DNA of 60,553 nt, taken from the NCBI GenBank assembly GCA_022750375.1, contig JAKIVU010000001.1, forward strand, positions 96,695 through 157,247, in the 5' to 3' direction. The translations under genes were made by a program, and so were the position numbers. Source of the stretch: Thermoplasmata archaeon (lineage in GTDB: Archaea > Thermoplasmatota > Thermoplasmata > Lutacidiplasmatales > UBA184). The notes below the pieces were generated by a model. That model worked only from the letters and a program-made list of their open reading frames with translations, ran no database searches and had not been told where the DNA came from. Each line of letters begins with the position of its first letter. Position 1 is the stretch's first letter. Shown one piece after another: positions 12,952-60,362 of the stretch.

Positions 12952-14166
12952 TTATCCTTCCGTGGCGCGGCGGAGCCGCACGAGTTCATTTAGCTTTGCC
13001 ACCCGCTCTCCGCCGACCACTCCACACTTTAGGGCGCGGGCCCCCGTCCCCAGGGCGACGTGGGCGAGCCACCCTTCCGGTACCTCCCCCGACCGGTGGG
13101 AGGTCACGGTGGCGAGGCCGTGGGCTCGGGCGTAGTCCACCGTGGCGGTCGCGTCGGAGATCGTTCCGACTTGGTTGACCTTGATCAGGACCGCGTTCGA
13201 CGCGCCGCGGGCGACCCCGTCGGTCAGGCGACGCACGTCGGTCGTGTAAATGTCGTCCCCTACCACCAGGGCCTTCTTCCCCACCGCGCGGGTCACGGCC
13301 GCGAATCCGTCGAACGACTCCTCGTCGAGCGGGTCCTCGAGATACCGGAGCCGGTAACGGTCGACGAGTTCCCCGACATAGGCGACCTGACCTTCCGTGT
13401 CGAGCGTACGATCCTTGTAGCGATACGATCCGTCGCGGAAGAACTCGCTTGCGGCGAGGTCGAGGCCGGGATGGACCTCCACGTGGAGATCGTCCCTCGT
13501 ACGTGCGCACGCGTCGGTGAGGACGCCGAGGGCCTCCTCGTTGGAGAGCGGGGCTACCCAGCCCCCTTCGTCGCCGCGACCGAGCGCCACGGTGGGGAGA
13601 CGCCGATGCAACTCGGCGCCGATCAACCCGTGGACGTGGATCGCCGCCGCTACGGATTTCCGTGGGTCCGGCGATTCCGCGTAGGCGATGAACTCCTGGA
13701 TGTCCGGACCGCCGATCGCGTGCGCGCCTCCGTTCATGCAATTCCCGACGATCGCCGGGAACGAAGTTCCGTCCACGCCCGGCCGCGCAAGGACCTGCCA
13801 CAACGGGCGGTGCGTCTCTTCCGCGTACGCCATCGCGTTCGCGACCGAGATCGCCGTCGCGGTGTTCCCTCCGATCCGGCCGAAATCGGGGGTTCCGTCT
13901 ACCTCGTGAAGTGTACGATCGATCGCTGCCTGATCGCCAGGGTCCAAGCCGACCAACGCGGGCCCGACGTGCGTGCGGGCCGTTGCTACTGCTTCGGGAA
14001 CGCCCCCGGGAGGAAAGGCTCGCACCTCGTGGGTTCCCGTGCTCGCGCCGCTCGGCGCCCCGGCCCGTGCCCGGGCGCGCGAGTCGAGCACAACGGTCGC
14101 CTCGACCGTTGCGCGGCCCCGACTATCGAACAACGACTCGACGACGACCGTAGAAATCCGGCTCAT
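12952..14166 (-). CDS. eno: Enolase (phosphopyruvate hydratase)
   Basis: [45 protein letters not shown]. Start ATG 14166 overlaps the mce stop. Confidence 0.95.
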
Positions 14167-14558
14167 GGACCTTCCACAAACTCGACCAGCACGCCCCCGA
14201 ACGCCGAAGGGTGGGCGAAACCGACGCGGCGGCCGCGAGCGCCGGGGCGCGCGCGCTCGTCCACGACCCGCAGTCCGCGAGCGCGGACCTCGGCGAGGGC
14301 GGTGTCGACTCTGGGCACCGAGAACGCAAGATGGTGAACCCCGGGTCCCCGGCTCTCGAGGAAGCGTGCCACGGGAGAGGTCTCGTCCGCCGGTTCGAGG
14401 AGCTCGATATGGGTCTCTCCGACGGCGACGAAGGCCACCCGGACCCGGTTCGAGGGGACTTCCTCCGGCGGGCTCTCGGGTGGGCCGACCAGGGGACGCC
14501 ACTGTTCGATGGCGGCCGCCAGGTTCGGGACGGCAATCCCCACATGGTCGAGCTTCAC
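14163..14558 (-). CDS. mce: Methylmalonyl-CoA epimerase
   Basis: LDHVGIAV, IELLEP, GPGVHHLAF.V, GARG..V.FAHP...GVLVEFVE; adjacent to the mutase. Confidence 0.93.
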   Translation of the reverse strand: MKLDHVGIAVPNLAAAIEQWRPLVGPPESPPEEVPSNRVRVAFVAVGETHIELLEPADETSPVARFLESRGPGVHHLAFSVPRVDTALAEVRARGLRVVDERARPGARGRRVGFAHPSAFGGVLVEFVEGP

Positions 14559-14570
14559 CGGGACCTCCGC

Positions 14571-16250
14571 TCAGAACGCGCGGGACGGCTTATGCTCGCC
14601 GAACAGTCCGCGCCAGACGTCGGCGACCTCGCCGAGCGTGGCCCCGGCGTTGATGCTCGCGAGCACGGGCGGGAGGACGTTCTCTCCGTCGCGCGTCGCC
14701 TGCTCCAGGCGCGCGATCGCGGCGCGAAACTTCGCCGAGTCGCGCTCCTTTCTCCAGCGCCGAACCTGTCCGACCTGCCGCTGCTCCTCCGCGGGGGTGA
14801 TTCGCTGCACCGCGACACCACGACCCCCTACCTCAGGGAAGAGAGTGAAGTCGGTGTTACCGTCGGTGAACTCGTTCACTCCGACGACGACTTCTTGGTG
14901 CGCCTCGCGCGCCCGGGCGATTCGGTAGGCTTCGCGGGCGATCTCGGAGGCGAGGAAGCCGCGCTCGATCGCGAGCAACGCCCCTCCCATCTCTTCGATC
15001 CGGGCGAGATACTCGCGCGCCTCGCGCTCGATGCGGTCCGTCAGGTACTCGATCTCGTACGCTCCCCCGAGCGGGTCGACGGTGTTCGTTACCCCGGACT
15101 CCTCGGCAAGGATCTGCTGGGTCCGGAGCGCCAATCGGGCCGACGGCTCGGTCGGAAGACCGAGCGCCTCGTCCAGGGCGTTCGTGTGGAGCGACTGCGT
15201 GCCACCGAGCACGGCGGCAAGCGCCTCGAGCGTCGTGCGCACCACGTTCAGTTCCGGCTGCTGCGCGGTGAGGCTCGAGCCGGCGGTCTGCGTATGGAAC
15301 CGGAGCTGTTTGGATCGGGCGGAACGCGCGCCGAATGTCTCCTGAACGATCGTCGCCCACAATCTCCGGGCGGCGCGGTACTTCGCGATCTCCTCGAGAA
15401 AATTGCGGTCCGACGAGAAGAAGAACGAGAGGCGGGGAAGGAATTCGTCGAGGTCGAGGCCGCGTTCCTGCACCGCTCGGACGTACGCGATCGCGTTGGC
15501 GATCGTGAAGGCGACCTCCTGGACCGCCGTGGCCCCCGCTTCGCGCATGTGGTAGCCGGAGACGGAGATGTAGTTCCATTGCGGCATCTCGCGCGTGGCG
15601 AACTCGATCAAGTCGACCGCGAGGCGGAGCGACGCCTTCGGAGGGTAGATGTAGGTCCCGCGGGCGACGTACTCCTTTAGTATGTCATTCTGGACGGTGC
15701 CGCCCAGCCGGGCTCGCGGGACGCCGCTCTCCTCGGCGACCGCGACCAGGAGGGCGGTGAGGATCGGTGCGGTGGCGTTGATCGTCATCGAGACCGTAGC
15801 TTTGTCGAGGGGGAGACCCCGGAAGAGGGTCCGCATATCCCCGAGGGAGGCGATCGGGACGCCGCACCGGCCCACCTCTCCCACGGCCCGCGTGTGGTCA
15901 GAGTCGTAGCCGTTCTGCGTCGGGAGGTCGAACGCGACCGAGAGCCCGGTCTGTCCGCCTTTCAGAAGGAAATGGAATCGGCGGTTGGTCGCCTCGGCGC
16001 TTCCGAAGCCGGAGTACTGCCGAAGGGTCCAGAGCCGGCCCCGGTACATCGTCGGCTGGATCCCTCGCGTGTACGGGTACGACCCGGGAAATCCGACCTT
16101 GTCGAGGAACTCTCCGTCGGGGTCGTCGGGGGGTCCCACGAGGAGCGGAAGCTGACCTCCCTCGACCTTCGGGCCGATCGCCGCACGCGCGTCGGCCTCC
16201 CAACGCGCGCGGCCGGTCGCCTTCTTGGACGGTCGCCGGGAGCGGGCCAT
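14571..16250 (-). CDS. Methylmalonyl-CoA mutase, large (substrate-binding) subunit
   Basis: YPYTRG, WTLRQYSGFG, GLSVAFDLPTQ.GYDSD, QNDILKEY.ARG, GGTQSLHTN; no cobalamin-binding domain (split archaeal type). Confidence 0.93.
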   Translation of the reverse strand: MARSRRPSKKATGRARWEADARAAIGPKVEGGQLPLLVGPPDDPDGEFLDKVGFPGSYPYTRGIQPTMYRGRLWTLRQYSGFGSAEATNRRFHFLLKGGQTGLSVAFDLPTQNGYDSDHTRAVGEVGRCGVPIASLGDMRTLFRGLPLDKATVSMTINATAPILTALLVAVAEESGVPRARLGGTVQNDILKEYVARGTYIYPPKASLRLAVDLIEFATREMPQWNYISVSGYHMREAGATAVQEVAFTIANAIAYVRAVQERGLDLDEFLPRLSFFFSSDRNFLEEIAKYRAARRLWATIVQETFGARSARSKQLRFHTQTAGSSLTAQQPELNVVRTTLEALAAVLGGTQSLHTNALDEALGLPTEPSARLALRTQQILAEESGVTNTVDPLGGAYEIEYLTDRIEREAREYLARIEEMGGALLAIERGFLASEIAREAYRIARAREAHQEVVVGVNEFTDGNTDFTLFPEVGGRGVAVQRITPAEEQRQVGQVRRWRKERDSAKFRAAIARLEQATRDGENVLPPVLASINAGATLGEVADVWRGLFGEHKPSRAF

Positions 16251-24971: not shown

Positions 24972-24986
24972 GGGGCGCACCGTCCG

Positions 24987-30677: not shown

Positions 30678-30685
30678 TTTAAGTA
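30678..30685 (+). promoter_or_regulatory. TATA box for the dppBCDF-like operon
   Basis: TTTAAGTA about 30 nt upstream of ATG 30716. Confidence 0.55.
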
Positions 30686-30715
30686 CCGGCGAAAGGTGTT
30701 GGAGGGCAGGCCCCC

Positions 30716-33118: not shown

Positions 33119-33130
33119 ATCATCGCAACC

Positions 33131-34744
33131 ATGGCCTCGAGTACCCTGCCGTCGAGCCCGGTCGCGATGCCCGAGGATGGGCCGCCGCTGGCCGATGCGG
33201 GGAACGTCTCCGAGCCCCCGGCAGACAAGGACGACTCGATCCTTTCGATCAAGGACCTACGGACGTACTTCTACACCTACGACGGGGTCGTCAAGGCGCT
33301 CGACGGGGTCACATTCAAGATCCGTCGCGGGGAAACGACCGGGCTCGTCGGTGAGACCGGCTGCGGGAAGAGCGTGACGGCGTTCTCCGTCACCCGATTG
33401 ATCTCCGACCCTCCCGGACGCGTGATGGACGGGAAGATCGTCTTCGACGGGGCCAATCTCCTCTGGCGACTCGAGGGGGAGGCCAAGTACATCACCAAGC
33501 CGAACACTCCTCGCGTGAAGGTGCGCCGGTACTTCCGTCGAATCAAGGCGGCCGACAACCGCATGACGGCGATCCGGGGCCGACGGATCGCGATGATCTT
33601 CCAGGAACCGTCGCAGGCGATGAACCCCGTCTTCTCGATCTCAAACCAGCTGAGCGAGGTCCTTCTCCTCCATCGGGGGATCAAGATCATCGACGAGATG
33701 CTTGCGGCCACCCCCGACGCCCCGGGGGTCCCCGCGGCGATCGATGCGGTAGTGAACGCCGCCAACCGACGTCAGCGTGAGGAGCTCGTAGATGCCGGGA
33801 GACATCTCGGCGACGTCGTGGGCTCCCAAGGGGCGGGCACGGAGGTCTACCATCTCGCGAGGAACGAAGGCGCCGGCAGCGACGACCTCCGTCCGAAGAT
33901 CGAGAAGGCACTCAAGCGGCTCCACCTCCGCACGACCCAGCGCCGTTACCTCGGGTACCGCCGCCACCTGATGGAGCTCCAGAACCAGCTTTACGAGGTC
34001 TATCTTTCTGAGATGCGCGAGGAGAGCCCGAAGAACGGGGAGCGGCGGGAGATCCAGCGCCGTCAGCTGTTCGAACGTCTGAAGCATTTCTACTACGGAC
34101 TCTGGGGGATCCGAGGGCAGGTCCAGAAGCCGCTCAAGACCGAGACGTTCTGGCGCTCGGTACGGCTTCTCGAAGGCGTCTCGATCGCGAACCCCGCCCA
34201 GGTCGCGCGCGGATACCCCCACGAGCTCTCGGGCGGGATGCTGCAGCGCGTCATGATCGCGATGGCGCTCTCCTCCGACCCCGACGTCCTGATCGCGGAC
34301 GAGCCGACGACCGCGCTCGACGTCACGATCCAAGCCCAGATCCTCGAACTGATGCGGGACCTGAAACACCGCGTCGGCACCTCGATCCTACTGATCACGC
34401 ACGACCTCGCGGTCATCGCGGAGGTCGCGGACCGGGTGTGCGTGATGTACGCCGGCCAAATCGTGGAACAGGGTCCGGTCGAGGACGTGTTCCGACAGCC
34501 GCTCCACCCGTATGCGCAAGGGCTGCTTGCGTCGATTCCTCGGTTCGACCAACCCGACAAGGACCTGCAATCGATCCCAGGGTCGGTTCCGAACCTGATC
34601 ACTCCCCCTCAGGGGTGCCGTTTTCACCCCCGGTGCCCCCACGCGATGCCGATCTGCAAGGTCACCCGCCCGCCGGTGACCGTGGAGGGTCCGGGGCACA
34701 CCGTAGCCTGTTATTTATACACGGGACCGGTCGCGGCCGATTAG
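33131..34744 (+). CDS. Opp/Dpp ABC ATPase (DppD-like) with large insertions
   Basis: GETGCGKS, IFQEP, LSGGMLQR, IADEPTTALD, C-terminal GCRFHPRC...C...AC; 537 aa. Confidence 0.93.
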   Translation: MASSTLPSSPVAMPEDGPPLADAGNVSEPPADKDDSILSIKDLRTYFYTYDGVVKALDGVTFKIRRGETTGLVGETGCGKSVTAFSVTRLISDPPGRVMDGKIVFDGANLLWRLEGEAKYITKPNTPRVKVRRYFRRIKAADNRMTAIRGRRIAMIFQEPSQAMNPVFSISNQLSEVLLLHRGIKIIDEMLAATPDAPGVPAAIDAVVNAANRRQREELVDAGRHLGDVVGSQGAGTEVYHLARNEGAGSDDLRPKIEKALKRLHLRTTQRRYLGYRRHLMELQNQLYEVYLSEMREESPKNGERREIQRRQLFERLKHFYYGLWGIRGQVQKPLKTETFWRSVRLLEGVSIANPAQVARGYPHELSGGMLQRVMIAMALSSDPDVLIADEPTTALDVTIQAQILELMRDLKHRVGTSILLITHDLAVIAEVADRVCVMYAGQIVEQGPVEDVFRQPLHPYAQGLLASIPRFDQPDKDLQSIPGSVPNLITPPQGCRFHPRCPHAMPICKVTRPPVTVEGPGHTVACYLYTGPVAAD

Positions 34745-34766
34745 TCGTACAGGGGAATCTGTTTCA

Positions 34767-35963
34767 ATGGAATCCGGCACGGCTCCCACGGTACTCGCGG
34801 TGCGGAACCTCCGGAAGTACTTTCCGATCAAGGGCGGCCTGCTCTCGACTCAGATCGGCGCGGTGCGCGCCGTCGATGGCGTCAGTTTCGATATCGCCCA
34901 AGGCGAGACCGTCGGACTCGTCGGAGAGTCCGGATGCGGCAAGACGACCGTCGGTCGCCTGCTCCTGCGCCTGATCGCCCCGACCGGCGGCCACACGTTC
35001 TACCGGCCGACCGACGATGCCCTCGCCCAGATCAACCGACTCTACACGACGCTCCGCCCGTTTGCCAACCAGATCGACGACGGGCGACGCGCGCTCTCCC
35101 CGAAGGCGAAGGATGCGCTCGCACAGCTCGACGTGCTCGCCGACGAATACTCGCTCTACCGTAAGTCGCGTCGTGAGATGCACGAGCTCCGCGGCAAGCT
35201 GCAGATCGTCTTCCAGGACCCGTTCAGCTCGCTCAGCCCGCGCATGCTGGTGCGCGACATCATCTCGGAGCCGCTCGCGATCCACCACTCCGGTACGCGC
35301 GCCGAGCGGTACCGTCGGGCCTCCGACCTGCTCCGACAGGTCGGTCTGAACCCCGAGCACGAGTGGCGCTTCCCGCACGAGTTCTCTGGCGGTCAACGTC
35401 AGCGGATCGGCATCGCCCGCGCACTCGCGCTCCGCCCGGACTTCATCGTGCTGGACGAGCCCACGAGTGCGCTCGATGTGTCGGTGCAGGCGCAGATCCT
35501 CAACATCCTCCGCCAGCTGCAGAACGAGCAGCGCCTCTCCTACCTGTTCATCTCGCACCACCTCTCCGTCGTGCGGGCGATCAGCCAGAAGGTCGTTGTG
35601 ATGTACCTCGGACGGGTCGTCGAGCGGGCGCCGACCGACCAGCTGTTCTCCCGACCGATGCACCCGTACACCCAGGCGCTCCTCTCGGCGATCCCGATCC
35701 CCGACCCGAGCCTGAAGCGCGAGCGGATCGTCCTGAAGGGCGACGTTCCGAGCCCGGCCGCGCCCCCGTCGGGATGCCACTTCCACACCCGTTGCCCCGC
35801 GGTGATGCCGGTCTGTTCCAAGGTCGACCCGCCGCTCCTTGAGGTCCGCGAGGGCCATTTCGTCGCCTGCCACCTTTACCCGGAGGCGGTCGCCCGGCCG
35901 ACGATGCCGGACACGACCACCCCGCCACCGGTCCCCGAAACGTTCGCCCCGTCGGCGTCGTAG
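34767..35963 (+). CDS. Opp/Dpp ABC ATPase (DppF-like) with insertion
   Basis: [38 protein letters not shown]...C...AC. Confidence 0.93.
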
Positions 35964-44469: not shown

Positions 44470-47400
44470 GTGCGGTCGCAGTTCCACAGCTGTCTACCGA
44501 TTGCCCTCGCGACCGTACTCCTTTTGGGAGCCGTCGTGTCCGCCCCCACCGGACCCGCGGGCCAGGGTGCCGTGACCCCCGTCGGAGGGGCGGTCGCCGC
44601 GCCGGTGACCCCGCAGTTACCGATGGTGTCGCCGGCGACGCGCGGGCCGGTCGAGGTGGCGCCCGGCTTTCAGATGCCGGAGGGGGTCACGCCGCTCGGA
44701 GCGGTGCCGGCCGCGACCCGTCTCTACGTGGCCGTCGGGCTTCCGTCGCGGGACCCAAGCGGCCTGGCCGCGTTCGTCGCGGCGGCTTCGGTCCCCGGGA
44801 GCGCAGGGTACCGTGCCTTCCTGAGCCCGGGGGAGGCCCAGGAGAGATTCGGAGCATCCGCTCAATCGATCTCCGCGGCCCGAGCCTACTTCGCCGGTTT
44901 CGACCTCCCCGCGACCACGAATCCGGACGGCCTCCTGCTATACGTCTCGGGGCCGGCCAGCCGGATCGCGGCGGCGTTCGGAACCGCGTTCGATGCGTAT
45001 CGTTCGACTTCGGGCCGGACCTTCGTGAGCCATCCGACCCCGGCCTCGTTACCGGCGTCCCTGGGGACCAACGGAGTCTTCGGTCTCGGGAACGCGACCC
45101 CCCTCGTGCCATCCACCGTAGAAGTGCCGGGGAACGCGCCGGCCCCCGCCGTCGCCTGCACTGGCCCCGCCGGTGGACTCACTCCCTGCGCGATCGCCCG
45201 CGCATACGACATCACCCCGCTCGAAGCGAACGGTACTGACGGTCACGGCATGGCCATCGCGGTCGTCGACGCCTACGCGTCGAATGAAGGGCAAACTCAG
45301 CTCACGACGGACCTCGCCTCGTTCGCGGCCTCCTCGTCGATCCCGGTCGGCAACGTCAGCTACCTCTACCCGGTCCCTACGTCCGTCGACCTCAATGCCT
45401 CCGGAACGAACATCGACTGGGCGTTCGAGGATGCCCTCGACCTCGAATGGGCCCGCGCCTCCGCTCCCGGCGCCACGGTCGACATGACGTTCTCCCCGAA
45501 TCCGGACGCCGGCCTCTACGACGCCGTCGACTGGCTCGTCTCGGAGGACGCGGTCAACGTCGTGTCGATGAGTTGGGGGGAGCCGGACACGGGCGTCTTC
45601 AACGCGTTCGACCAGCCGTGCAAGACGGCGTGTAACGCCACCACGGACGGTTCCTACGAGATCCTCGATCCGGTGCTCGAGCTCGGCACCGCGGAGGGGA
45701 TGACGTTCTTCGCGGCCTCGGGCGACTGCGGCTCCGCGGACGGGACCTCGGGGGTCGCCACGAACTTTCCGGCGTCGGACCCGTATGTGACCGGCGTCGG
45801 CGGCACTGACCTCACCGTCGGCGTCAACGACAGCTACGCGGCCGAGACCGCCTGGTCGGGGAACGCGACCGGCGCCAGCTCTCCGGGATGCAACAATCAG
45901 GGGGGCTCGGGGGGAGGCTTTGCTCCGTTCCCGGAGCCGTGGTGGCAGTTCGGCATCGCCGACGGAGCGCGCGCCCGCGGCGTCCCGGACGTCGCGATGG
46001 ACGCCGAGAATCCGGTCGCGATCGTCTTCGACGGCGGGGCGACGGGCGTATCCGGAACCAGCGTGGGGACCCCGATCTGGGCGGGGATCGCCGCGCTCGC
46101 CGACCAGTACGCCGGTAAGGGGCTCGGTCTTCTGACCCCCAGCCTCTATGAGATTCTCCGAGGACCATCGTACGCCACGGACTTCCACGACATTACGGCC
46201 GGCAACAACGGGTACGCCGCAGGCCCCGGATGGGACCCCGTGACGGGCATCGGTTCGCCGATCGTGGCCTCGCTCGTTCCGGATCTCGTGCGCGGCGGCG
46301 GTCTCCCTGGCGGGGGTCTGTCGACCACGCTCTACGCCTCGCCGCGAAGCGGCCATGTGCCCCTCGCGGCCTCCTTTGCCGTGAGCGCCTCGGGAGGGAC
46401 CGGGGGATACCCGTTGGAAGGGATCTCGTTCGGCGACGGGGGCTCCGCGTTGGCGAACGGTACCGTCGTGGTGCACACGTACTCGGTGCCGGGCGACTAT
46501 CTCGCCCAATCCTTTGTCGCCGACGACACCGGTAACACTTCGACCTCGCTCCCGGTCCTCGTTACGGTCGGGGGAGGGTCGCTCTCCGTCGCGCTCTCCG
46601 TTTCGAACCCGATCCCCACCGTGCAGGGGTTGGTGACGCTCACAGCGACCGCGATCGGCGGTTCGCCCCCGTACTCCTACCAGTTCTACTTTGGGGACGG
46701 CGGCTCCACGTCGCCCGGCGGCGCGTCGGTCGTTCACGCCTACCAAGTGGTGGGCGGTTTCTGCGCCGAAGTCATCGCGGTCGACTCGGCGAACCCGACG
46801 GACGCGGGCACCAGTCCACGCGTCGCCGTCGCGGTCGGTGGGGCGAGCACCCCGAACTGCGCCGACGGCTCGACCCCGTTCACCGTCGCCGCGAACGAAA
46901 GCGCGCCGGCGCGCGACGCCCCCGCGGACTACGACCAATCGCTGTTCACGACCTCGGGGGGGGCGAGCGCCCCGGACGGCCTGGCGCCGTCGACGAGCCT
47001 CGCCTCGAACGACTCGTACATCGCCGCCTGCGCGTGCGAGATCTTCCGTCACCCCGGCAATTACACCGTGACGGAATGGGCGAACGACACCGTGGACGGC
47101 TCCGCGAATGCGACGCGGAACCTCACCGTCGCCCCGGCGCTCGACGCGACGTTCGCGGCGTCCACCCTTTCCGGTCCCGCGCCGCTCAAGGTCTATTTCT
47201 TCTCCTCCACGAAGGGCGGATTCCTCGCGGACGCGAACCTCACCCACTGGACGTTCGGGAACGGGGGAAGCGCGGTCGGTCACTCGGTCAACGCGACGTA
47301 CTCGATCCCCGGAGAGTACCTCGCCTTCGGACGACTTTCCGACCAGGGCGAGGGGAACGGCAGCGAAGCGTTCCTGATCGACGTGGAACCGGTGAGCACC

Positions 47401-48387
47401 AACCCACCGCTCGGCGTTACGGCCACGGTGACGCCCGTGAGCAACGTATCGTCCGGAGCCTCCGTCCGCTTCACCGCGACCGTCGTCGGTACCGCGAGCG
47501 AGACGAACGGCGTCGGAGTGGAGTGGAATCTCGGGGATGGCCGTTCGGCGTACGGCAATTCGGTCGCCGAGACGTACTATGGTCCGCTCCCCAGCAGCGC
47601 GAACAACACCATCGCGGGCGGGGTCACGATCCAGACCCCGTTCCTGCAGACCCTCTACACCCTCGGGTTCCACCTCCCGTCGTTCTTCGCTGTCGAGGCC
47701 GGCGGGTACGTGCCCCGGGCGAACGCGCTCCAGGCGACCACCAACGTTTCTCCCAGCGAGAACCTCGTGCCGTTCGCCATCTTCGGCAACGCCTCCGCGA
47801 CCGGGCCGCACCCGATCTCGATCGCCTGGCTGTTCGGCGACGGCACGTCCGGCACGGGCTCCCAGGTCGAACACACGGTGTACGGCGCCCAGGGCTACCT
47901 CGTCGAGACGATCGTGACGGACGGATGGGGGGACGTCGGCACGCTGCTGAGCGGCGTCGCGGCGAACGGCCCGCTCGGGATCGCCGGTTCCCCGTCACCG
48001 GGCGAGGGGCCGAAGCCGCTGACCGTCACGATCGCCGCCTCAGGGTACGGCGGAAAGGGCCCCCCGTACGTGTACGATTGGACGTTCGTGAACGGGAGTC
48101 ACTCGAGCAACCCGACCGCGACGTTGTTCTTCCCGAACATCGGCACCTACGTGGTGCGCATCAACGTGACCGACCGTTCGGGAGCGATGGCGGAGCGGAA
48201 CTTCACGATCCTCGTCGAGTATCCGTTCCCGTACGCCCCGCTCGAGATCATCGCGGGAAGCGCGGCGGTCGGCGGTCTCCTCGCGGTGGCGTTGTACCAG
48301 AACTTGGGGTCCCGCCGAGGGAAGCGCCCCGGCGAACCGTGGCTCGACCACCCACGGACGGCGTCCGATGGGACCCCCGTCTGGTAA
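44470..48387 (+). CDS. Membrane-anchored S53 peptidase with multiple PKD domains
   Basis: Signal peptide, prodomain, EDALDLEW, AASGD, SGTSVGTP, GWDPVTGIGSP; several FGDG...H.Y...G.Y PKD repeats; C-terminal TM. Confidence 0.92.
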   Translation: MRSQFHSCLPIALATVLLLGAVVSAPTGPAGQGAVTPVGGAVAAPVTPQLPMVSPATRGPVEVAPGFQMPEGVTPLGAVPAATRLYVAVGLPSRDPSGLAAFVAAASVPGSAGYRAFLSPGEAQERFGASAQSISAARAYFAGFDLPATTNPDGLLLYVSGPASRIAAAFGTAFDAYRSTSGRTFVSHPTPASLPASLGTNGVFGLGNATPLVPSTVEVPGNAPAPAVACTGPAGGLTPCAIARAYDITPLEANGTDGHGMAIAVVDAYASNEGQTQLTTDLASFAASSSIPVGNVSYLYPVPTSVDLNASGTNIDWAFEDALDLEWARASAPGATVDMTFSPNPDAGLYDAVDWLVSEDAVNVVSMSWGEPDTGVFNAFDQPCKTACNATTDGSYEILDPVLELGTAEGMTFFAASGDCGSADGTSGVATNFPASDPYVTGVGGTDLTVGVNDSYAAETAWSGNATGASSPGCNNQGGSGGGFAPFPEPWWQFGIADGARARGVPDVAMDAENPVAIVFDGGATGVSGTSVGTPIWAGIAALADQYAGKGLGLLTPSLYEILRGPSYATDFHDITAGNNGYAAGPGWDPVTGIGSPIVASLVPDLVRGGGLPGGGLSTTLYASPRSGHVPLAASFAVSASGGTGGYPLEGISFGDGGSALANGTVVVHTYSVPGDYLAQSFVADDTGNTSTSLPVLVTVGGGSLSVALSVSNPIPTVQGLVTLTATAIGGSPPYSYQFYFGDGGSTSPGGASVVHAYQVVGGFCAEVIAVDSANPTDAGTSPRVAVAVGGASTPNCADGSTPFTVAANESAPARDAPADYDQSLFTTSGGASAPDGLAPSTSLASNDSYIAACACEIFRHPGNYTVTEWANDTVDGSANATRNLTVAPALDATFAASTLSGPAPLKVYFFSSTKGGFLADANLTHWTFGNGGSAVGHSVNATYSIPGEYLAFGRLSDQGEGNGSEAFLIDVEPVSTNPPLGVTATVTPVSNVSSGASVRFTATVVGTASETNGVGVEWNLGDGRSAYGNSVAETYYGPLPSSANNTIAGGVTIQTPFLQTLYTLGFHLPSFFAVEAGGYVPRANALQATTNVSPSENLVPFAIFGNASATGPHPISIAWLFGDGTSGTGSQVEHTVYGAQGYLVETIVTDGWGDVGTLLSGVAANGPLGIAGSPSPGEGPKPLTVTIAASGYGGKGPPYVYDWTFVNGSHSSNPTATLFFPNIGTYVVRINVTDRSGAMAERNFTILVEYPFPYAPLEIIAGSAAVGGLLAVALYQNLGSRRGKRPGEPWLDHPRTASDGTPVW

Positions 48388-51790: not shown

Positions 51791-52348
51791 CTAGGGGGGA
51801 GCCCCTTCCGTCGCGACGAACAGCATCGGCTCTTTGGCCCGGGCGTTCGCGCCGGGGCTGACCGCGAGGCCGCGGACGACCCCGTCGACCGGGCTCGTCA
51901 ACTCGTTCCGCATCTTCATCGCTTCGAGGACGAGGAGCACGTCACCCTTGCGCACGCGGTCGCCCTCTTTCACGCGGACCTCGATCACTTTTCCCGGCAT
52001 CGGCGGAACGATCGGCGCGCCGGCGCGGGACGGGGCTCGGGGAGGAGGAGCCGTCGTCGGTAGCGCGGGCGACCGGGACGGTGCGCCGGAGCTCGGGCTT
52101 ACGGCGCTGCGCTCGATCCCGACCTTCCACCGTTCGCCGTTCACGTCGACCGGCCCGGGGGGTTCTGGGAAGTGATCCGGCCAGTTCTCGACCAGCACGC
52201 GTTCGCCCGCGACCTCGAGCTCGACCGCGGTCGGGGTCGCGCGCACGACCGTCACCGGGTACCGCTCGGCACCGACGGTCACGGCGTCGCCTCCCGGGGC
52301 GACCTCGACGGTCGTCGACCTACCGTCCCGCTCGACGATGATTCGCAT
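51791..52348 (-). CDS. Biotin carboxyl carrier protein with N-terminal beta-rich (BT-barrel-like) domain
   Basis: PMPGKV, LEAMKMRNE biotinylation site, Pro/Ala/Ser linker, about 80-aa N-terminal beta domain. Start ATG 52348. Confidence 0.92.
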   Translation of the reverse strand: MRIIVERDGRSTTVEVAPGGDAVTVGAERYPVTVVRATPTAVELEVAGERVLVENWPDHFPEPPGPVDVNGERWKVGIERSAVSPSSGAPSRSPALPTTAPPPRAPSRAGAPIVPPMPGKVIEVRVKEGDRVRKGDVLLVLEAMKMRNELTSPVDGVVRGLAVSPGANARAKEPMLFVATEGAPP

Positions 52349-53852
52349 CGACCCACCTCCGTTGCGATTGCAGGCGGGCGCGACCTTCGTGCGCCCAAGG
52401 GCTGAGCCCACCGGTCGCGGGGGCGTTCGCCGGTGCGATCGTCGGCGGGGGCGAGGGGGCCCGGAGCGCGCCGACCACTCCCAGGGCCGCGCTCGTGAGC
52501 ACATCGGAGGAGAGCCCCCGGTCGATCGCGGTCCGGTACGACCGGTAGACGATAGGAAAGAGGGCGTAGGAGAGCGCTTCGGCGTCGTCGGCCGCTGGGA
52601 CGAGCACCCGCACCTCGGCGAGCATTTTCTCGAACTCGGGGGGGAGAAGGTCCGCTGGGCGGCCCGTGATCGCGGTCACGCCCTCGGTCAGGACCTTCGC
52701 CCGTAGGTCGGGGTCGATCGGCGCCGGCGGGGTCCCGTAGAGGCCCCGGACGTAGTCCCGCACTTCCTGGGTGATCTGCCGATAGCGACCGCCGGTCAGC
52801 ACGTTGAGCACGGCCTGGATCCCGACGATCTGGCTCGTCGGGGTAACGAGGGGAGGGTACCCGAGGTCGGCGCGGACCCGGGGGACTTCCGCTAGCACCT
52901 CGGTGAGACGGTTCAGTGACTCCTGTTCCTGGAGTTGCGAGAGGAGGTTCGAGAGCATCCCACCGGGCACCTGGTGGGTCAGGATCCCCGGGTCGGTCTG
53001 CAGGGAGCGGATGTTGAGCAGGGGGCGATACCGGTCCAGCACGGTTCCGAAGTAGGTGGCGAGGTCGGCGAGCGCGTGGAGGTCGAGGTGGGTGTCGAGG
53101 GCGGTGTGCTGCATGGCACCGACCAGCGTTTCCGTGGGGGGTTGGGAAGCTCCGCCCGAGAACGGGCTGAGGGCGCTGTCGACCGCGGCGGCACCGGCTT
53201 CCGCGACGGCGAGGCAGGTCATGGTGGACATGCCGCTCGACGAATGCGTGTGCACGACGACGGGCAGGCCGACCTTTTTGACGAGCGCCCGTACGAGGGC
53301 GGCGCCTTCGGTCGGCGGGAGAAATCCCGCCATGTCCTTGACGCAGAGCTCGTCGGCCCCCATCGCCGCGAGCCGTTGGCCGAGCTCGACGAACGCCGGC
53401 AAGGTGTGCACGGGGGATTGGGTATAGCAGATCGTCGCCTGTGCGCGAGCGTCCACGGCCCGGACCGCGTCGAGGGCGACCTCCATGTTGCGCGGGTCGT
53501 TCAGCGCGTCGAAGACGCGGAAGATGTCGATGCCCTGGGCCGCCGATTCGGCAACGAACTTTCGGACCAGGTCGTCGGCGTAATGCCGGTAGCCGACGAG
53601 GTTCTGTCCGCGGAGCAGCATCTGGAGGGGCGTCTTCGGCATCGCCCGCTTCAGGAGACGGAGCCGTTCCCACGGGTCTTCCCGAAGGAACCGGAGGCTG
53701 ACGTCGAACGTCGCGCCTCCCCATACCTCGATCGAGCGGTAGCCGATCGCGTCCAGCCGTTCCGCCGCCGGGAGCATGTCCCGCGTCCGCATCCGCGTCG
53801 CGATGAGCGATTGATGCCCGTCGCGCAGGACGGTCTCGGTGATGCCGACCAT
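52320..53852 (-). CDS. Pyruvate/oxaloacetate carboxyltransferase (transcarboxylase 5S / OadA / PycB type) without biotinyl domain
   Basis: VLRDGHQSL.ATRM, WGGATFD, EDPWERL, QMLLRGQNLVGYRHY, KDMAG, HTH, VPGGMLSN, GYPPLVTPTSQIVG; no MKM motif. Confidence 0.93.
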   Translation of the reverse strand: MVGITETVLRDGHQSLIATRMRTRDMLPAAERLDAIGYRSIEVWGGATFDVSLRFLREDPWERLRLLKRAMPKTPLQMLLRGQNLVGYRHYADDLVRKFVAESAAQGIDIFRVFDALNDPRNMEVALDAVRAVDARAQATICYTQSPVHTLPAFVELGQRLAAMGADELCVKDMAGFLPPTEGAALVRALVKKVGLPVVVHTHSSSGMSTMTCLAVAEAGAAAVDSALSPFSGGASQPPTETLVGAMQHTALDTHLDLHALADLATYFGTVLDRYRPLLNIRSLQTDPGILTHQVPGGMLSNLLSQLQEQESLNRLTEVLAEVPRVRADLGYPPLVTPTSQIVGIQAVLNVLTGGRYRQITQEVRDYVRGLYGTPPAPIDPDLRAKVLTEGVTAITGRPADLLPPEFEKMLAEVRVLVPAADDAEALSYALFPIVYRSYRTAIDRGLSSDVLTSAALGVVGALRAPSPPPTIAPANAPATGGLSPWAHEGRARLQSQRRWVDANHRRAGR

Positions 53853-53868
53853 GATCGACGACCCCGCG

Positions 53869-55419
53869 TTAGAGTGGGATGTTCCCGTGCTTCTTCGCGG
53901 GCCGGTCGTCGCGCTTCGAGGAGAGCATCTTGAGGCCAGCGACGAGGCGTGCCCGGGTCTCGGCGGGGTCGATCACGTCGTCGATGTACCCCCGCTCGGC
54001 GGCAAGGTACGGATTCAGGAACTCGGTCCGGTAGTCGGCGATGAGCCGTGCCCGAAGCGTCTCCCGGTCGGCCTCGGGGGTCCGGTCGAGCTCGCGGCGG
54101 TAGAGGATGTTGACCGCCCCATCGGCGCCCATGACGGCGATCTCGGCCGTCGGCCACGCCAGGTTCAGGTCTCCTCCGAGGTGCTTCGAGCACATCACGT
54201 CGTACGCCCCGCCGTACGCCTTCCGTAGGATGACCGTCAGCAGCGGGACGGTGGCCTCGGCATACGCGTACAGCAGCTTCGCCCCGTGACGGATGATCCC
54301 CCCGTGCTCCTGGGCCGTGCCGGGGAGGAAGCCGGGCACATCCACGAACGTGAGGAGCGGGAGATTGAACGCATCGCAGAACCGGACGAAGCGGGCCGCC
54401 TTGGTGGAGGCGTTGATGTCGAGCGTCCCGGCGAGGGCGCCCGGATTGTTCGCGACGACGCCGACCGGATGGCCCGCGAGCCGTGCGAATCCAACGACGA
54501 TGTTCGGGGCCCAGGTGCTGTGCACCTCGAGGAGCGTCTCGGGGTCGAGGACCCGGGCGAGTACCTCGTGCACATCGTAGGGTGCGTTCGCGTTCTCGGG
54601 TACGATTTGGGGGAGCTCGGACGCGGCCGAGTCCGGCGGCGACGTCGCCGCGGAGACCGGGGGCTCCTCCAGATTGTTGAGCGGCAGGTAGGAAAGGAGG
54701 TGGCGCGCGAGGACAATTGCGTCGGCGTCGGAACCCGCCGTGAAGTGGGAGACCCCGCTCAGGGAGGCGTGGGCGTCCGCGCCCCCGAGCGCGTCCATCG
54801 TGACCTCCTCGCCGGTGACGGCACGAACGACGTCCGGCCCCGTGATGAACATCTGCCCGGTGCCTTCCGCCATGATCACGAAGTCGGTGATCGCGGGCGA
54901 GTAGACCGCCCCGCCGGCGCACGGGCCGAGGATGAGAGAAAGTTGAGGGACGACGCCCGATAAGGAGACGTTCCGGAAGAACACCTCACCGTACCCACCG
55001 AGGCTCATCACCCCCTCTTGTATGCGCGCGCCCCCGGAATCGTTCAACCCCACGATCGGGACGCCGGCCTTGCGGGCCGTTTCCATGACCTTGACGATCT
55101 TCATTGCGTGAGCCTCCCCGAGCGCCCCTCCGAACACGGTCGCGTCCTGGGCGAAGGCGCATACCGGACGCCCCTCGACCTCCCCCCATCCGGTGACCAC
55201 CCCGTCCCCCGGAGGTCGTCGGTCGGCGAGACCGAACTTCTCGACGCGGTGCGTGACGAACGGGTCGATCTCCGTGAACGTCCCCGGGTCGAAGAACGAC
55301 TCGAGCCGCTCGCGAGCGGTGAGCTTCCCTGCCGCCCGGTGTTTCTCCACGCGGTCGGCGCCCCCGCCCTCGCGCGCCTTGCGCTTCAGGACCGTCCACC
55401 GGTCGAACGCTTCGCTCAT
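53869..55419 (-). CDS. Acyl-CoA carboxyltransferase (PccB / transcarboxylase 12S / MmdA type)
   Basis: GKLTARER, DSGGARIQEG, GPCAGGAVYSPA, DVPGFLPG..QEHGGIIRHGAKLL, RKAYGGAY, KKHGNIPL. Start ATG 55419. Confidence 0.95.
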   Translation of the reverse strand: MSEAFDRWTVLKRKAREGGGADRVEKHRAAGKLTARERLESFFDPGTFTEIDPFVTHRVEKFGLADRRPPGDGVVTGWGEVEGRPVCAFAQDATVFGGALGEAHAMKIVKVMETARKAGVPIVGLNDSGGARIQEGVMSLGGYGEVFFRNVSLSGVVPQLSLILGPCAGGAVYSPAITDFVIMAEGTGQMFITGPDVVRAVTGEEVTMDALGGADAHASLSGVSHFTAGSDADAIVLARHLLSYLPLNNLEEPPVSAATSPPDSAASELPQIVPENANAPYDVHEVLARVLDPETLLEVHSTWAPNIVVGFARLAGHPVGVVANNPGALAGTLDINASTKAARFVRFCDAFNLPLLTFVDVPGFLPGTAQEHGGIIRHGAKLLYAYAEATVPLLTVILRKAYGGAYDVMCSKHLGGDLNLAWPTAEIAVMGADGAVNILYRRELDRTPEADRETLRARLIADYRTEFLNPYLAAERGYIDDVIDPAETRARLVAGLKMLSSKRDDRPAKKHGNIPL

Positions 55420-56156
55420 GCGACTCCCTCCACACGAACATCTCCGGCTCTTATCGCCACCCGCTCGCCGTCGCCATCCAGGAGCAGCTCCCCCTCCTCG
55501 CCGAGGCCGACGATCGTCCCGGAGTCTTGGCCGTCCACGGCCGCTCGGCGTCCCACCCCGAAGAGCCAACGGCGGCACAACTTTCGGGTCGCTTCGGCCC
55601 CCCCGGTCCCCTGCAGTCCGATCGCCGCGCGCATCGCCGAGCGCACGACGACCGTCTCGACCGCATCCAGTGATGGGGGGGACCCGACTATTTCGGCGAG
55701 TGACGACGCTCGGTCTCGCAGTTCGCCCGGAAACTGATCGCGGCGGGTCGTGACGTTGACCCCGATCCCGGCCACTTCGACGGCCGCCCCGGGAGGGTCG
55801 ACGACCCGGTCGACCAGGACCCCCGCGACTTTACGGGCCGGAACGGAGGGGCGGGTCACGAGGAGGTCGTTGGGCCACTTGACCGAGAAGCGCGCGGAGT
55901 ACTGGTCCGTGAACTCTTGGGCGAGCCGCGCGCCGAGTGCGAGCGGGAGCCAGGTGAGGTGCTCGGGCGGTGCGCGGAGGAGGATCGACACGTAGAGGCC
56001 GCCGGGAGGAGAGGTCCACGTGTGGTCGAGGCGCCCCCGTCCGTGCGTTTGTTGCCGCGCGACGACCCGGGTCCCCTCGGGTGCGCCCGTGCGCGCGAGC
56101 TCGATCGCTCGGTCCTGCGTGGAGGAGAGCCGATCGTGAAACTCTCGAGGACCCAT
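55416..56156 (-). CDS. birA: Biotin protein ligase (no HTH)
   Basis: STQD, QTHGRGR...W.SP.GGLY.S, VKWPNDL, KVAGVL, GIGVN. Start ATG 56156. Confidence 0.93.
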   Translation of the reverse strand: MGPREFHDRLSSTQDRAIELARTGAPEGTRVVARQQTHGRGRLDHTWTSPPGGLYVSILLRAPPEHLTWLPLALGARLAQEFTDQYSARFSVKWPNDLLVTRPSVPARKVAGVLVDRVVDPPGAAVEVAGIGVNVTTRRDQFPGELRDRASSLAEIVGSPPSLDAVETVVVRSAMRAAIGLQGTGGAEATRKLCRRWLFGVGRRAAVDGQDSGTIVGLGEEGELLLDGDGERVAIRAGDVRVEGVA

Positions 56157-58270: not shown

Positions 58271-58711
58271 CTAGCCGAGCTCGCGGAGCCGGCGCGTCAT
58301 CTTGACGACGGCCCGTACGGCGTTCCCCGCGTTCTCGATCCGGTCCTGCGCCTGGAGCCGGGTCTCGCCGGGCCCGGAGATGCCGAGGCCCAGCGGCTTC
58401 CCGAACTCGACCGAGAGGTCCGTCAGCTTTCGGGCCGCCTGGTTCATGACGACCTCGTCGTGGTTCGTCTCGCCTTCGATGACGGCACCGAGCGCGACGA
58501 CCGCATCGACCTCCGAGCGCCCGAAGAGGACCTTGACGGCGAGCGGCATGTCGTAGACGCCGGGGGTCTTGACGACCGGTCCGAGCGTGGCGCCGAGGAA
58601 GTCGACCTCCTCCTTCGCCCGCTCGAGCATCATGAGCGTGATGTCGTAGTTGTATTCGCTCGCCACGATCGCCACCGTCACGCCCTTTCCTTCCTTGTTC
58701 TTCTTCGCCAT
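58271..58711 (-). CDS. ribH: 6,7-dimethyl-8-ribityllumazine synthase
   Basis: AIVASEYN, PGVYDMPL, LGAVIEGET.HD, GISGPG. Confidence 0.95.
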   Translation of the reverse strand: MAKKNKEGKGVTVAIVASEYNYDITLMMLERAKEEVDFLGATLGPVVKTPGVYDMPLAVKVLFGRSEVDAVVALGAVIEGETNHDEVVMNQAARKLTDLSVEFGKPLGLGISGPGETRLQAQDRIENAGNAVRAVVKMTRRLRELG

Positions 58712-58732
58712 CGTTGTTGCTCCGTTGGATCG

Positions 58733-60362
<1,630 letters not shown>

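What the first reader, a model, noticed from the sequence alone, without database searches (positions are those of the whole stretch)
51791..56156. Candidate archaeal methylmalonyl-CoA:pyruvate transcarboxylase operon (birA-12S-5S-BCCP, no biotin carboxylase, no Na+ pump)
Seen: four tightly coupled genes (4-bp overlap, 16-bp gap, 29-bp overlap) encoding biotin ligase, an acyl-CoA carboxyltransferase, a pyruvate/oxaloacetate carboxyltransferase without its own biotinyl domain, and one biotin carrier. There is no ATP-grasp biotin carboxylase and no OadB/MmdB membrane subunit in the operon or window. Established: two different carboxyltransferases sharing one carrier is the composition of Propionibacterium transcarboxylase (12S/5S/1.3S) of the Wood-Werkman cycle. 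Pyruvate and propionyl-CoA carboxylases need a biotin carboxylase, and Na+-translocating decarboxylases need a membrane beta subunit. The 5S-like protein has VGITE.VLRD, TICYT.SPVHT and RPADLLPPE.EK, as I recall from the Propionibacterium 5S subunit. Inference: this archaeon moves carboxyl groups between (methyl)malonyl-CoA and pyruvate without ATP. I know of no characterised archaeal example.
Basis: partly seen in the sequence, partly recalled or inferred. Interest (0 to 1): 0.85.

Follow-up and report, generated by a model that had tools for sequence, protein, structure and literature searches.

The report
Archaeal ATP-free transcarboxylase operon candidate
A soil archaeon carries a conserved four-gene set that most likely passes a carboxyl group between oxaloacetate/pyruvate and propionyl-/methylmalonyl-CoA on biotin without spending ATP, a job that public annotation assigns to ATP-using carboxylases.

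Summary
Four co-directional genes on the minus strand encode a biotin ligase, an acyl-CoA carboxyltransferase ("12S-like"), a pyruvate/oxaloacetate carboxyltransferase without a biotinyl domain ("5S-like"), and a 185-aa biotin carrier. They have the stated 4-bp overlap, 16-bp gap and 29-bp overlap.

The transcarboxylase reading is well supported by genomics but has not been tested biochemically. The clade includes records titled Candidatus Lutacidiplasma.
- In 186 genomes of the order, 164 have the 5S-like gene, 5 have a biotin carboxylase and none has an OadB-type pump subunit.
- Four of the five biotin-carboxylase genomes lack the 5S-like gene. They carry a classical CT–BC–BCCP cassette beside birA instead.
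- Elsewhere in the class, all 8 genomes with a strong 5S-like homologue also have a biotin carboxylase or OadB.
- Methylmalonyl-CoA mutase and epimerase lie in the same window.

The proteins are not orthologues of the Propionibacterium subunits. A transcarboxylase has already been inferred from genomes in Asgard archaea. For this order the gene was published as pccB.

The parts
55416..56156 (-). Biotin-protein ligase (BirA type, no repressor domain), first gene of the operon
   Evidence: PF03099 at 54.6 bits; TIGR00121 at 115 bits against a cut-off of 83. The stop overlaps the next start by 4 bp. Found upstream of the 12S-like gene in 63 of 68 related loci; the other 5 are cut by contig ends.
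53869..55419 (-). Acyl-CoA carboxyltransferase, '12S-like' (PccB/MmdA family), predicted to act on propionyl-/methylmalonyl-CoA
   Evidence: PF01039 at 652 bits. TIGR01117 mmdA scores 766, below its 999 cut-off. Best solved relative is S. coelicolor PccB 1xnv at 688 bits; P. shermanii 12S 1on3 scores 596. The oxyanion-hole glycines are invariant, and the residue equivalent to PccB Asp422 is Asp in 34 of 38 aligned sequences. It is the only Carboxyl_trans gene in 36 of 36 genus genomes.
52320..53852 (-). Pyruvate/oxaloacetate carboxyltransferase, '5S-like', with no biotinyl domain. CT core spans residues 1-440, followed by a clade-specific tail (440-510) with a conserved SPWAHEGR..RL..QRRW motif
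   Evidence: PF02436 plus PF00682. NF006761 (PycB domain) scores 673 against a cut-off of 402. oadA scores 637 (below 756) and the 5S equivalog NF008984 scores 500 (below 827). PDB scores: 5ks8 PycB 493 bits, 2nx9 OadA 469, 1rqb 5S 421. Metal and carbamyl-lysine positions D11, K172, H201 and H203, and tail residues W486 and G490, are invariant in 42 of 42 sequences.
51791..52348 (-). Biotin carboxyl carrier, 185 aa: N-terminal eight-stranded beta domain (1-80), Pro/Ala-rich linker (about 84-110), and biotinyl domain with EAMKM
   Evidence: PF00364 at residues 115-175. A-M-K-M is invariant in 52 of 52 sequences. AlphaFold model has pLDDT 85.8. The whole model aligns to the BT-BCCP part of PCC/MCC alpha chains at Foldseek E 1e-8. 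The N-domain folded alone gave no significant match.
14571..16250 (-). Methylmalonyl-CoA mutase large subunit. A pathway partner 36 kb away, not part of the operon
   Evidence: PF01642 at 681 bits; TIGR00641 at 688 bits against a cut-off of 304. The mutase family is present in 35 of 36 genus genomes, mostly in two copies.
14163..14558 (-). Methylmalonyl-CoA epimerase, directly downstream of the mutase gene
   Evidence: TIGR03081 equivalog at 131.1 bits against a cut-off of 114.95; Glyoxalase_4.

Best explanation
The operon encodes a biotin-dependent, ATP-independent transcarboxylase. BirA biotinylates the single carrier. The 5S-like subunit moves a carboxyl group between oxaloacetate/pyruvate and the carrier's biotin. 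The 12S-like subunit moves it between biotin and propionyl-CoA/(S)-methylmalonyl-CoA. The net reaction is propionyl-CoA + oxaloacetate <-> methylmalonyl-CoA + pyruvate.

Together with epimerase, mutase, succinyl-CoA synthetase, succinate dehydrogenase and malate dehydrogenase, this closes a cycle. The cycle oxidises propionyl-CoA (from odd-chain or branched substrates, or from propionate) to pyruvate, and no ATP is spent on carboxylation. The reaction is reversible, so a propionate-forming direction is also possible.

Shown here: gene content, its conservation, intact catalytic residues, the lack of BC and OadB, and the alternation with a BC cassette. Inferred: the substrates, the direction, and that the three proteins form one complex. 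I suggest, weakly, that the carrier's N-terminal domain and the 5S-like tail tether the complex.
For: 1. Composition and tight coupling of the four genes.
2. Conservation: 58 of 68 archaeal loci have all four genes in order, and the other 10 are cut by contig ends. None of the 68 has a BC, OadB or mutase gene within 6 kb.
3. Order-wide counts over 186 genomes, including the window's own: 5S-like in 164, Biotin_carb_C in 5, OAD_beta in 0. Among the 72 genomes at least 90% complete and at most 5% contaminated, the counts are 63, 3 and 0. The control genomes ring as expected.
4. Alternation: G016, G102, G176 and G061 have BC but no 5S-like hit. Their only Carboxyl_trans gene sits in a CT-BC-BCCP cassette. 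In G102, G176 and G061 a birA converges on that cassette; G016's 5.1-kb contig is too short to show one. GC is 0.66-0.72. So the 5S-like subunit and BC occupy the same role as carboxyl donor to the acyl-CoA CT.
5. Outside the order, all 8 of 8 class genomes with a strong 5S-like homologue have BC or OadB, usually adjacent.
6. In the five most complete genus genomes, the only biotinyl/lipoyl hits are an E2-like protein, the operon's carrier and a weak GcvH-like hit. The only ATP-grasp hits of the CPSase_L_D2 type are CarB, PurT and weak matches in 300-aa frames.
7. Pathway partners: epimerase and mutase in the window; mutase in 35 of 36 genus genomes; SucC, SDH flavoprotein, an Ldh/Mdh-family gene and malic enzyme each in 5 of 5.
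8. Catalytic positions are invariant across the clade.
Against: - There is no biochemical, proteomic or transcript evidence.
- Neither CT is closest to the Propionibacterium subunits. The 5S, oadA and mmdA equivalog cut-offs are all missed, so substrate assignment rests on family-level similarity and pathway context.
- In two species (L084, L086) a 1064-aa gene on the opposite strand separates the 12S-like and 5S-like genes, so co-transcription is not universal.
- One genome (G111) has both the operon and a BC fragment, the latter on a 1.96-kb contig.
- No PEPCK (ATP or GTP type) and no archaeal-type PEP carboxylase was found in the five best genomes. A real pyruvate carboxylase would therefore fill a visible gap, although malic enzyme is present. 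Bacterial-type PEP carboxylase was not searched.
- The window's own assembly is only 69% complete.
Confidence: 0.72

Rival explanations
1. These are two ordinary ATP-dependent carboxylases (propionyl-CoA carboxylase and two-subunit pyruvate carboxylase). They share a carrier and use a biotin carboxylase that is encoded elsewhere or is too divergent to recognise. This is what the current annotations imply ('pyruvate carboxylase subunit B', 'pccB').
For: Source names call the 5S-like protein 'pyruvate carboxylase subunit B'. Sheridan et al. 2022 (PMC9287336, passages) list pccB as the marker of a propionate-to-succinate pathway. NF006761 (PycB domain model) is passed. No PEPCK or archaeal-type PEPC was found in 5 of 5 good genomes, so pyruvate carboxylation would be useful.
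Against: Biotin_carb_C is missing from 181 of 186 order genomes and from 69 of 72 high-quality ones, while the same search rings in 13 of 14 control genomes. CPSase_L_D2 hits in the five best genomes are CarB, PurT (513 bits against a cut-off of 339) and weak matches in 300-aa frames. Where BC does occur in the clade, it comes with its own CT and the 5S-like gene is gone.
Confidence: 0.07
2. It is a decarboxylase system (oxaloacetate and/or methylmalonyl-CoA decarboxylase). Its carboxybiotin would be discharged by an unrecognised membrane or soluble decarboxylase, with or without ion pumping.
For: The nearest bacterial relatives of the 5S-like protein (53-56% identity) sit beside OadB in 10 of 12 loci. 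Other Thermoplasmata use the same split CT + BCCP with OadB (G043, G051, G056), and G054 has mutase-MmdA-BCCP-OadB.
Against: OAD_beta is found in 0 of 186 order genomes, while the search finds it in 4 class relatives and in the 2 expected controls. No conserved membrane gene lies in the operon. The alternation with an ATP-dependent carboxylase cassette points to carboxylation of an acyl-CoA, not decarboxylation.
Confidence: 0.06
3. It is a transcarboxylase with other physiological substrates, for example acetyl-CoA/malonyl-CoA or another short acyl-CoA on the 12S-like side, or 2-oxobutyrate on the 5S-like side.
For: No equivalog cut-off is met for either CT. The PccB Asp422-equivalent is Val in 4 of 38 clade sequences. 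Known enzymes of this family are promiscuous (recalled, not tested).
Against: The best solved relatives are propionyl-CoA carboxylase beta subunits and MmdA. Asp is kept at the specificity position in 34 of 38 sequences. Epimerase and mutase are in the window and the mutase is near-universal in the genus. No obvious use for malonyl-CoA was looked for or found.
Confidence: 0.1

Closest known systems
Methylmalonyl-CoA:pyruvate transcarboxylase of Propionibacterium freudenreichii subsp. shermanii (12S/5S/1.3S, EC 2.1.3.1)
   Same: Two different carboxyltransferases plus one small biotinyl carrier, with no biotin carboxylase and no membrane subunit. The predicted chemistry is the same. The 5S-like protein has no biotinyl domain and is about 510 aa.
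   Different: Not orthologous. The 5S equivalog NF008984 scores 500 against a cut-off of 827. 1rqb scores 421 bits, below PycB (493) and OadA (469). 1on3 scores 596 bits, below PccB (688). The carrier is 185 aa with an extra N-terminal beta domain; the 1.3S subunit is about 123 aa (recalled). A birA gene is in the operon. The likely direction is propionyl-CoA carboxylation in an aerobic heterotroph rather than propionate fermentation (inferred).
Na+-translocating oxaloacetate decarboxylase (OadA/B/G) and the split OAD-type operons of other Thermoplasmata and Firmicutes
   Same: The 5S-like CT is 53-56% identical to the CTs of OadB-linked operons. The metal and carbamyl-lysine positions are conserved in the alignments to PycB and OadA. 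The split into CT plus a separate BCCP is the same in G043, G051 and G056.
   Different: No OadB in 186 of 186 order genomes. An acyl-CoA CT takes the place of the pump gene in the operon. The oadA equivalog cut-off is missed (637 against 756).
Two-subunit pyruvate carboxylase (PycA/PycB; solved example Methylobacillus flagellatus 5ks8)
   Same: This is the highest-scoring solved relative of the 5S-like protein (493 bits). The PycB domain model is passed. G052 shows a split CT-BCCP-BC version in the same class.
   Different: No PycA-type biotin carboxylase. There is no fused carrier.
Propionyl-/acyl-CoA carboxylase (PccA/PccB), including the CT-BC-BCCP cassette of sister genomes G016, G102, G176 and G061
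   Same: The 12S-like protein is most like PccB (688 bits). The carrier model aligns to the BT-BCCP part of PCC/MCC alpha chains. The product would feed the same epimerase/mutase route.
   Different: The BC is replaced by a pyruvate/oxaloacetate CT. The cassette's CT is only 57-59% identical to the window's 12S-like protein, against 68-92% within the operon-bearing clade.
Methylmalonyl-CoA transcarboxylase inferred for Asgard archaea (Imachi et al. 2020, PMC7015854)
   Same: [quoted passage not shown]
   Different: A different phylum, an anaerobic fermentative setting, and no gene-order or BC/OadB absence statistics in the passages I saw. Their Supplementary Figs 16-18 could not be opened.

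Membership tests
Biotin-dependent transcarboxylase (functional class, EC 2.1.3.1) | An acyl-CoA carboxyltransferase and a pyruvate/oxaloacetate carboxyltransferase encoded together | tested here: met
   PF01039 and PF02436+PF00682 genes lie 16 bp apart. They are adjacent in 66 of 68 related loci and separated by one inserted gene in the other 2.
Biotin-dependent transcarboxylase (functional class, EC 2.1.3.1) | One separate biotinyl carrier with the biotinylated Lys motif | tested here: met
   185-aa protein with EAMKM invariant in 52 of 52 sequences. It is the only non-lipoyl-type carrier found in the five best genomes.
Biotin-dependent transcarboxylase (functional class, EC 2.1.3.1) | No biotin carboxylase and no carboxybiotin-decarboxylase membrane subunit in the organism | tested here: met
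   For the window's own assembly this is only suggestive, at 69% completeness. Across the order, BC is found in 5 of 186 genomes and OadB in 0 of 186. Four of the five BC genomes lack the 5S-like gene.
Biotin-dependent transcarboxylase (functional class, EC 2.1.3.1) | ATP-independent carboxyl transfer between methylmalonyl-CoA and pyruvate, and a stable complex of both CTs with the carrier | not testable with these tools
   Needs enzyme assays and co-purification.
Propionibacterium-type 5S subunit (NCBIfam NF008984 equivalog) | Score above the curated cut-off of 827 bits | tested here: not met
   500 bits. Ten other roughly 480-510-aa representatives of the family also miss it. The clade forms its own branch (support 100) and is not joined to any labelled group.
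Two-subunit pyruvate carboxylase | PycB-type CT together with a PycA biotin carboxylase | tested here: not met
   The CT domain model is passed (673 against 402), but BC is missing.
Na+-pumping oxaloacetate / methylmalonyl-CoA decarboxylase | OadB/MmdB membrane subunit; oadA (756) or mmdA (999) equivalog cut-offs | tested here: not met
   OAD_beta in 0 of 186 genomes. oadA scores 637 and mmdA 766, both below cut-off.
Propionyl-CoA carboxylase | PccB-type CT with a PccA (BC-BT-BCCP) subunit | tested here: not met
   A PccB-like CT is present (688 bits to 1xnv), but there is no BC. A true CT-BC-BCCP cassette exists only in 4 sister genomes that lack the 5S-like gene.

The most novel reading that the evidence does not exclude
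This would be a convergently assembled archaeal transcarboxylase built on a propionyl-CoA-carboxylase-like scaffold. In it, a pyruvate/oxaloacetate CT derived from an OadA/PycB-type enzyme has taken the place of the ATP-dependent biotin carboxylase. The carrier's BT-like N-terminal beta domain and the conserved C-terminal tail of the 5S-like subunit would tether it to the 12S-like core. Module swapping between the BC and the 5S-like CT would still be visible within one order (164 genomes against 4). That would make propionyl-CoA oxidation ATP-free in a widespread group of soil archaea.
Probability: 0.3. Interest if true: 0.65.

Novelty: new variant of a known kind. Interest (0 to 1): 0.52.

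Why it matters
It would be the first transcarboxylase documented for Thermoplasmatota. If assayed, it would be the first characterised from any archaeon that my literature searches could find.

It corrects the working annotation of a whole order, where the genes are called 'pyruvate carboxylase subunit B' and 'pccB'. It changes the energy bookkeeping of propionate, odd-chain and branched-chain substrate oxidation in these soil archaea by one ATP per propionyl-CoA.

The within-order alternation between a BC cassette and a 5S-like CT is a clean natural example of module exchange in biotin enzymes. The pyruvate CT family switches partners (BC, Na+ pump, acyl-CoA CT) repeatedly, so function cannot be called from the CT sequence alone.

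Tried and rejected
- Complex prediction. I sent carrier residues 1-92, 5S-like residues 425-510 and the 12S-like protein as partner. The result was 'no answer' (score 0.17, mark 0.32). It is not used as evidence either way.
- Folding the carrier's N-domain alone. The model had pLDDT 64.4 and Foldseek gave no PDB match at E <= 0.001. ACC/MCC/PCC alpha chains dominate the top of the list (TMq 0.5-0.57), so the BT-like reading stays a lead only.
- BLASTP of the carrier and of the 5S-like protein against a fused 673-aa homologue, P0123. Only the biotinyl domain and the CT core (residues 1-435) align. The N-domain and the tail are clade-specific or too diverged.
- Labelling family representatives by NCBIfam so that the tree could be read functionally. 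None of the 10 reached any 5S, oadA or PycB equivalog cut-off, so only genomic context could label rows.
- Expression. No RNA holder was listed: 7 soil DNA runs from 2 studies.
- A weak ATP-grasp hit in a 479-aa frame was checked as a possible divergent BC. It is PurT.
- I first suspected that the BC+CT contig of G016 was mis-binned. I dropped that idea when the same cassette turned up in G102, G176 and G061, there with a clade-like birA beside it, at clade-like GC.
- The tree used the 'quick' method. Its backbone is unresolved, so no donor lineage is claimed. A 12S tree was not built.
- Supplements were closed. Sheridan et al. Supplementary Data 8 and Imachi et al. Supplementary Figs 16-18 may hold gene presence tables or trees that bear on the novelty claim.
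- Only Imachi et al. (Asgard) infers one; nothing was found for this order.


Full report
**What is there.** On the minus strand, four genes run head to tail:
- birA, 56156..55416
- a 516-aa carboxyltransferase of the PccB/MmdA family, 55419..53869
- a 510-aa pyruvate/oxaloacetate carboxyltransferase, 53852..52320
- a 185-aa biotin carrier, 52348..51791

Pfam and NCBIfam confirm the four identities. They also show that the 5S-like protein has no biotinyl domain and that the carrier has one only at residues 115-175. Other window genes are archaeal in character: TFIIB, RtcB, primase large subunit, ATP-dependent DNA ligase and an archaeal-type PurP. GC content is 61-72%.

**Who carries it.** The window's assembly is 931 kb and 69% complete. 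Named relatives of the 5S-like gene, at 64-91% identity, are 68 records. Sixty-seven are titled as Thermoplasmata or Lutacidiplasma MAGs, and one (L064) is titled only 'bacterium'. They include Candidatus Lutacidiplasma silvani AcS3-62 and a 'Candidatus Lutacidiplasmatales archaeon'. Sheridan et al. 2022 describe that order as having about 69% GC and about 2.1-Mb genomes (PMC9287336, passages). I infer that the window belongs to this clade. I did not test its placement.

**Conservation.** In the 68 archaeal loci, 58 have birA-12S-5S-BCCP in this order. Five lack only birA and five lack only the carrier, each because the contig ends there. None has a BC, OadB or mutase gene within the 6-kb flanks. 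In two loci (L084, L086) a 1064-aa BNR/CarboxypepD_reg/PEGA protein gene on the other strand is inserted between the two CT genes. Mean column identity is 85% for the 12S-like protein, 80% for the 5S-like protein and 51% for the carrier. The following are invariant:
- the metal and carbamyl-lysine positions of the 5S-like CT (D11, K172, H201, H203)
- the oxyanion-hole glycines of the 12S-like CT
- the AMKM biotinylation motif

**The decisive test: is there a biotin carboxylase or a pump subunit elsewhere?** Neither was found in the window's own assembly, but 69% completeness proves little.

In a draw of 36 genus genomes, 34 have the 5S-like gene, 36 have exactly one Carboxyl_trans gene, 1 has Biotin_carb_C and none has OAD_beta.

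Across the whole order (186 genomes including the window's own), the 5S-like gene is in 164, BC is in 5 and OadB is in 0. Among the 72 genomes at least 90% complete and at most 5% contaminated, the counts are 63, 3 and 0. The same searches ring in the expected control genomes.

In the five most complete genus genomes, CPSase_L_D2-type ATP-grasp hits are CarB, PurT (verified) and weak matches in 300-aa frames. Biotinyl/lipoyl hits are an E2-like protein, the operon's carrier and a weak GcvH-like hit.

**Alternation with a real carboxylase.** Four of the five BC-bearing genomes have no 5S-like hit: G016, G102 (91% complete), G176 (93%) and G061 (98%). Their single Carboxyl_trans gene is 57-59% identical to the window's 12S-like protein and lies in a CT-BC-BCCP cassette. 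In G102, G176 and G061 a convergent birA, 37-47% identical to the window's BirA, lies beside the cassette. G016's 5.1-kb contig is too short to show one. GC of these loci is 0.66-0.72. The fifth genome, G111, has the operon plus a BC fragment on a 1.96-kb contig.

Within one order, therefore, the acyl-CoA CT is served either by an ATP-dependent BC or by a pyruvate/oxaloacetate CT. This is what one expects if oxaloacetate replaces ATP plus bicarbonate as the carboxyl donor.

**Contrast outside the order.** Among 18 other genomes of the class, 8 have a strong 5S-like homologue (45-52% identity), and all 8 have BC or OadB. The local context is:
- CT-BCCP-OadB in G043, G051 and G056
- CT-BCCP-BC in G052
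- a solo CT plus a mutase-MmdA-BCCP-OadB operon in G054
- 12S-5S-BCCP in G044, which also has a BC elsewhere

So the lack of a fused biotinyl domain is the norm for this CT in Thermoplasmata, whatever its partner. It is not itself a transcarboxylase signature.

The nearest bacterial relatives (53-56% identity) sit next to OadB in 10 of 12 loci. In the other 2, the partner is a distant CT plus a BCCP.

**Relationship to the Propionibacterium enzyme.**
- The 5S-like protein scores 493 bits to PycB (5ks8), 469 to OadA (2nx9) and 421 to P. shermanii 5S (1rqb).
- It misses the 5S equivalog cut-off (500 against 827) and passes only the PycB domain model.
- The 12S-like protein scores 688 bits to S. 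coelicolor PccB and 596 to P. shermanii 12S.
- In a quick maximum-likelihood tree of 82 rows, rooted on 3 single-chain pyruvate carboxylases, the 15 clade sequences form one branch (support 100). That branch is not joined to the other Thermoplasmata OAD/PYC group or to G044. OAD-type and PYC-type rows are interleaved within the Thermoplasmata group. The backbone is unresolved.

The system therefore works like a transcarboxylase but was assembled independently of the Propionibacterium one.

**Substrates and pathway.** The residue equivalent to PccB Asp422 is Asp in the window and in 34 of 38 clade sequences. I recall, but did not test, that this residue governs the preference for propionyl-CoA over acetyl-CoA.

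The window holds a methylmalonyl-CoA mutase large subunit (14571..16250) and, directly downstream, a methylmalonyl-CoA epimerase that passes its equivalog cut-off (14163..14558). The mutase family is in 35 of 36 genus genomes, mostly as two copies lying tens of kb on either side of the operon.

In the five best genomes:
- SucC, SDH flavoprotein, an Ldh/Mdh-family gene and malic enzyme are each present in 5 of 5.
- PEPCK (GTP and ATP types) and archaeal-type PEP carboxylase are each in 0 of 5.
- Fumarase and bacterial-type PEP carboxylase were not searched.

The simplest pathway is this. Propionyl-CoA + oxaloacetate gives methylmalonyl-CoA + pyruvate. Methylmalonyl-CoA goes to succinyl-CoA, and succinate, fumarate and malate regenerate oxaloacetate. 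This is the logic used by syntrophic propionate oxidisers (recalled; the listings are consistent with it). It fits Sheridan et al.'s 'propionate to succinate pathway', which they based on pccB, mmsA and MCEE without mentioning a biotin carboxylase, pyruvate or oxaloacetate in the main text. The direction is an inference from the alternation with an irreversible carboxylase. The reaction itself is reversible.

**Architecture (weak).** The carrier has three parts: a conserved eight-stranded N-terminal domain (1-80), a variable Pro/Ala linker and the biotinyl domain. The full model aligns over about 185 columns to the BT-BCCP portion of PCC/MCC alpha chains (Foldseek E about 1e-8, low TM because the two domains are loosely connected). 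The N-domain alone gave no significant match.

The 5S-like protein ends in a clade-specific tail with invariant W486 and G490. I suggest that these two clade-specific pieces tether the subunits. This is untested.

**Novelty.** Searches for transcarboxylase together with Thermoplasmata, Thermoplasmatota, archaea or archaeal terms, and for the order's name, found no report for this lineage. Imachi et al. 2020 infer a methylmalonyl-CoA transcarboxylase from Asgard genomes. Lombard and Moreira 2011 explicitly left transcarboxylases out of their survey (PMC3199775, passages). Public protein names for this clade are 'pyruvate carboxylase subunit B' or 'pyruvate/oxaloacetate carboxyltransferase'.

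**Verdict.** It is not yet biochemistry. This is a known kind of enzyme in a new, independently assembled form, and it corrects an annotation across a whole order. Confidence in the transcarboxylase reading is about 0.72. Interest is 0.52.

Noticed in passing
window 14163-16250 (-): A methylmalonyl-CoA mutase large subunit is followed directly by a methylmalonyl-CoA epimerase that passes its equivalog cut-off. Genus genomes mostly carry two mutase paralogues, lying tens of kb on either side of the operon. What the second paralogue does is unknown.
   Followed up: partly
L084 2727-5921 (-) and L086 2092-5286 (-): In two related species a 1064-aa gene (BNR-like, CarboxypepD_reg and PEGA domains) on the opposite strand is inserted between the 12S-like and 5S-like genes. 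This splits the operon into two units.
   Followed up: partly
L120 (G102), L121 (G176), L122 (G061), L028 (G016): Four genomes of the same order carry a CT-BC-BCCP cassette, with a convergent birA in three of them, and have no 5S-like gene. This is the ATP-dependent alternative to the window's operon. Which state is ancestral was not determined.
   Followed up: partly
L111 and L114 (Acutalibacteraceae / Clostridia MAGs): These bacterial loci pair a close 5S-like homologue (55% identity) with a distant carboxyltransferase (34-35% identical to the 12S-like protein) and a BCCP, with no OadB in the flanks. They may be further transcarboxylase-like or glutaconyl-type systems.
   Followed up: no
L035 and L034 (G054): One complete 1.49-Mb Thermoplasmata genome has a mutase-MmdA-BCCP-OadB operon plus a solitary 5S-like CT with no carrier beside it. 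Two CTs may share one carrier and one pump there.
   Followed up: no
window 44470-48387 (+): A 1305-aa protein with a pro-kumamolisin activation domain and several PKD domains. It is probably a secreted sedolisin-type acid protease and would fit a peptide-using acidophile.
   Followed up: no
window 26063-30859 (-) and 23943-25409 (-): A 1598-aa ORF and a 488-aa ORF both show gene-like codon-position GC. Neither has any Pfam match, and the 488-aa ORF has no NCBIfam match either.
   Followed up: no
window 32081-35963 (+): Oligopeptide/dipeptide ABC transporter genes: a permease and two ATPases with the oligo_HPY domain.
   Followed up: no
window 58271-60362 (-): A riboflavin/FAD gene cluster: DMRL synthase, a second DMRL_synthase-like ORF (possibly an archaeal riboflavin synthase), a cytidylyltransferase-like protein (possibly an archaeal FAD synthetase) and DHBP synthase.
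   Followed up: no
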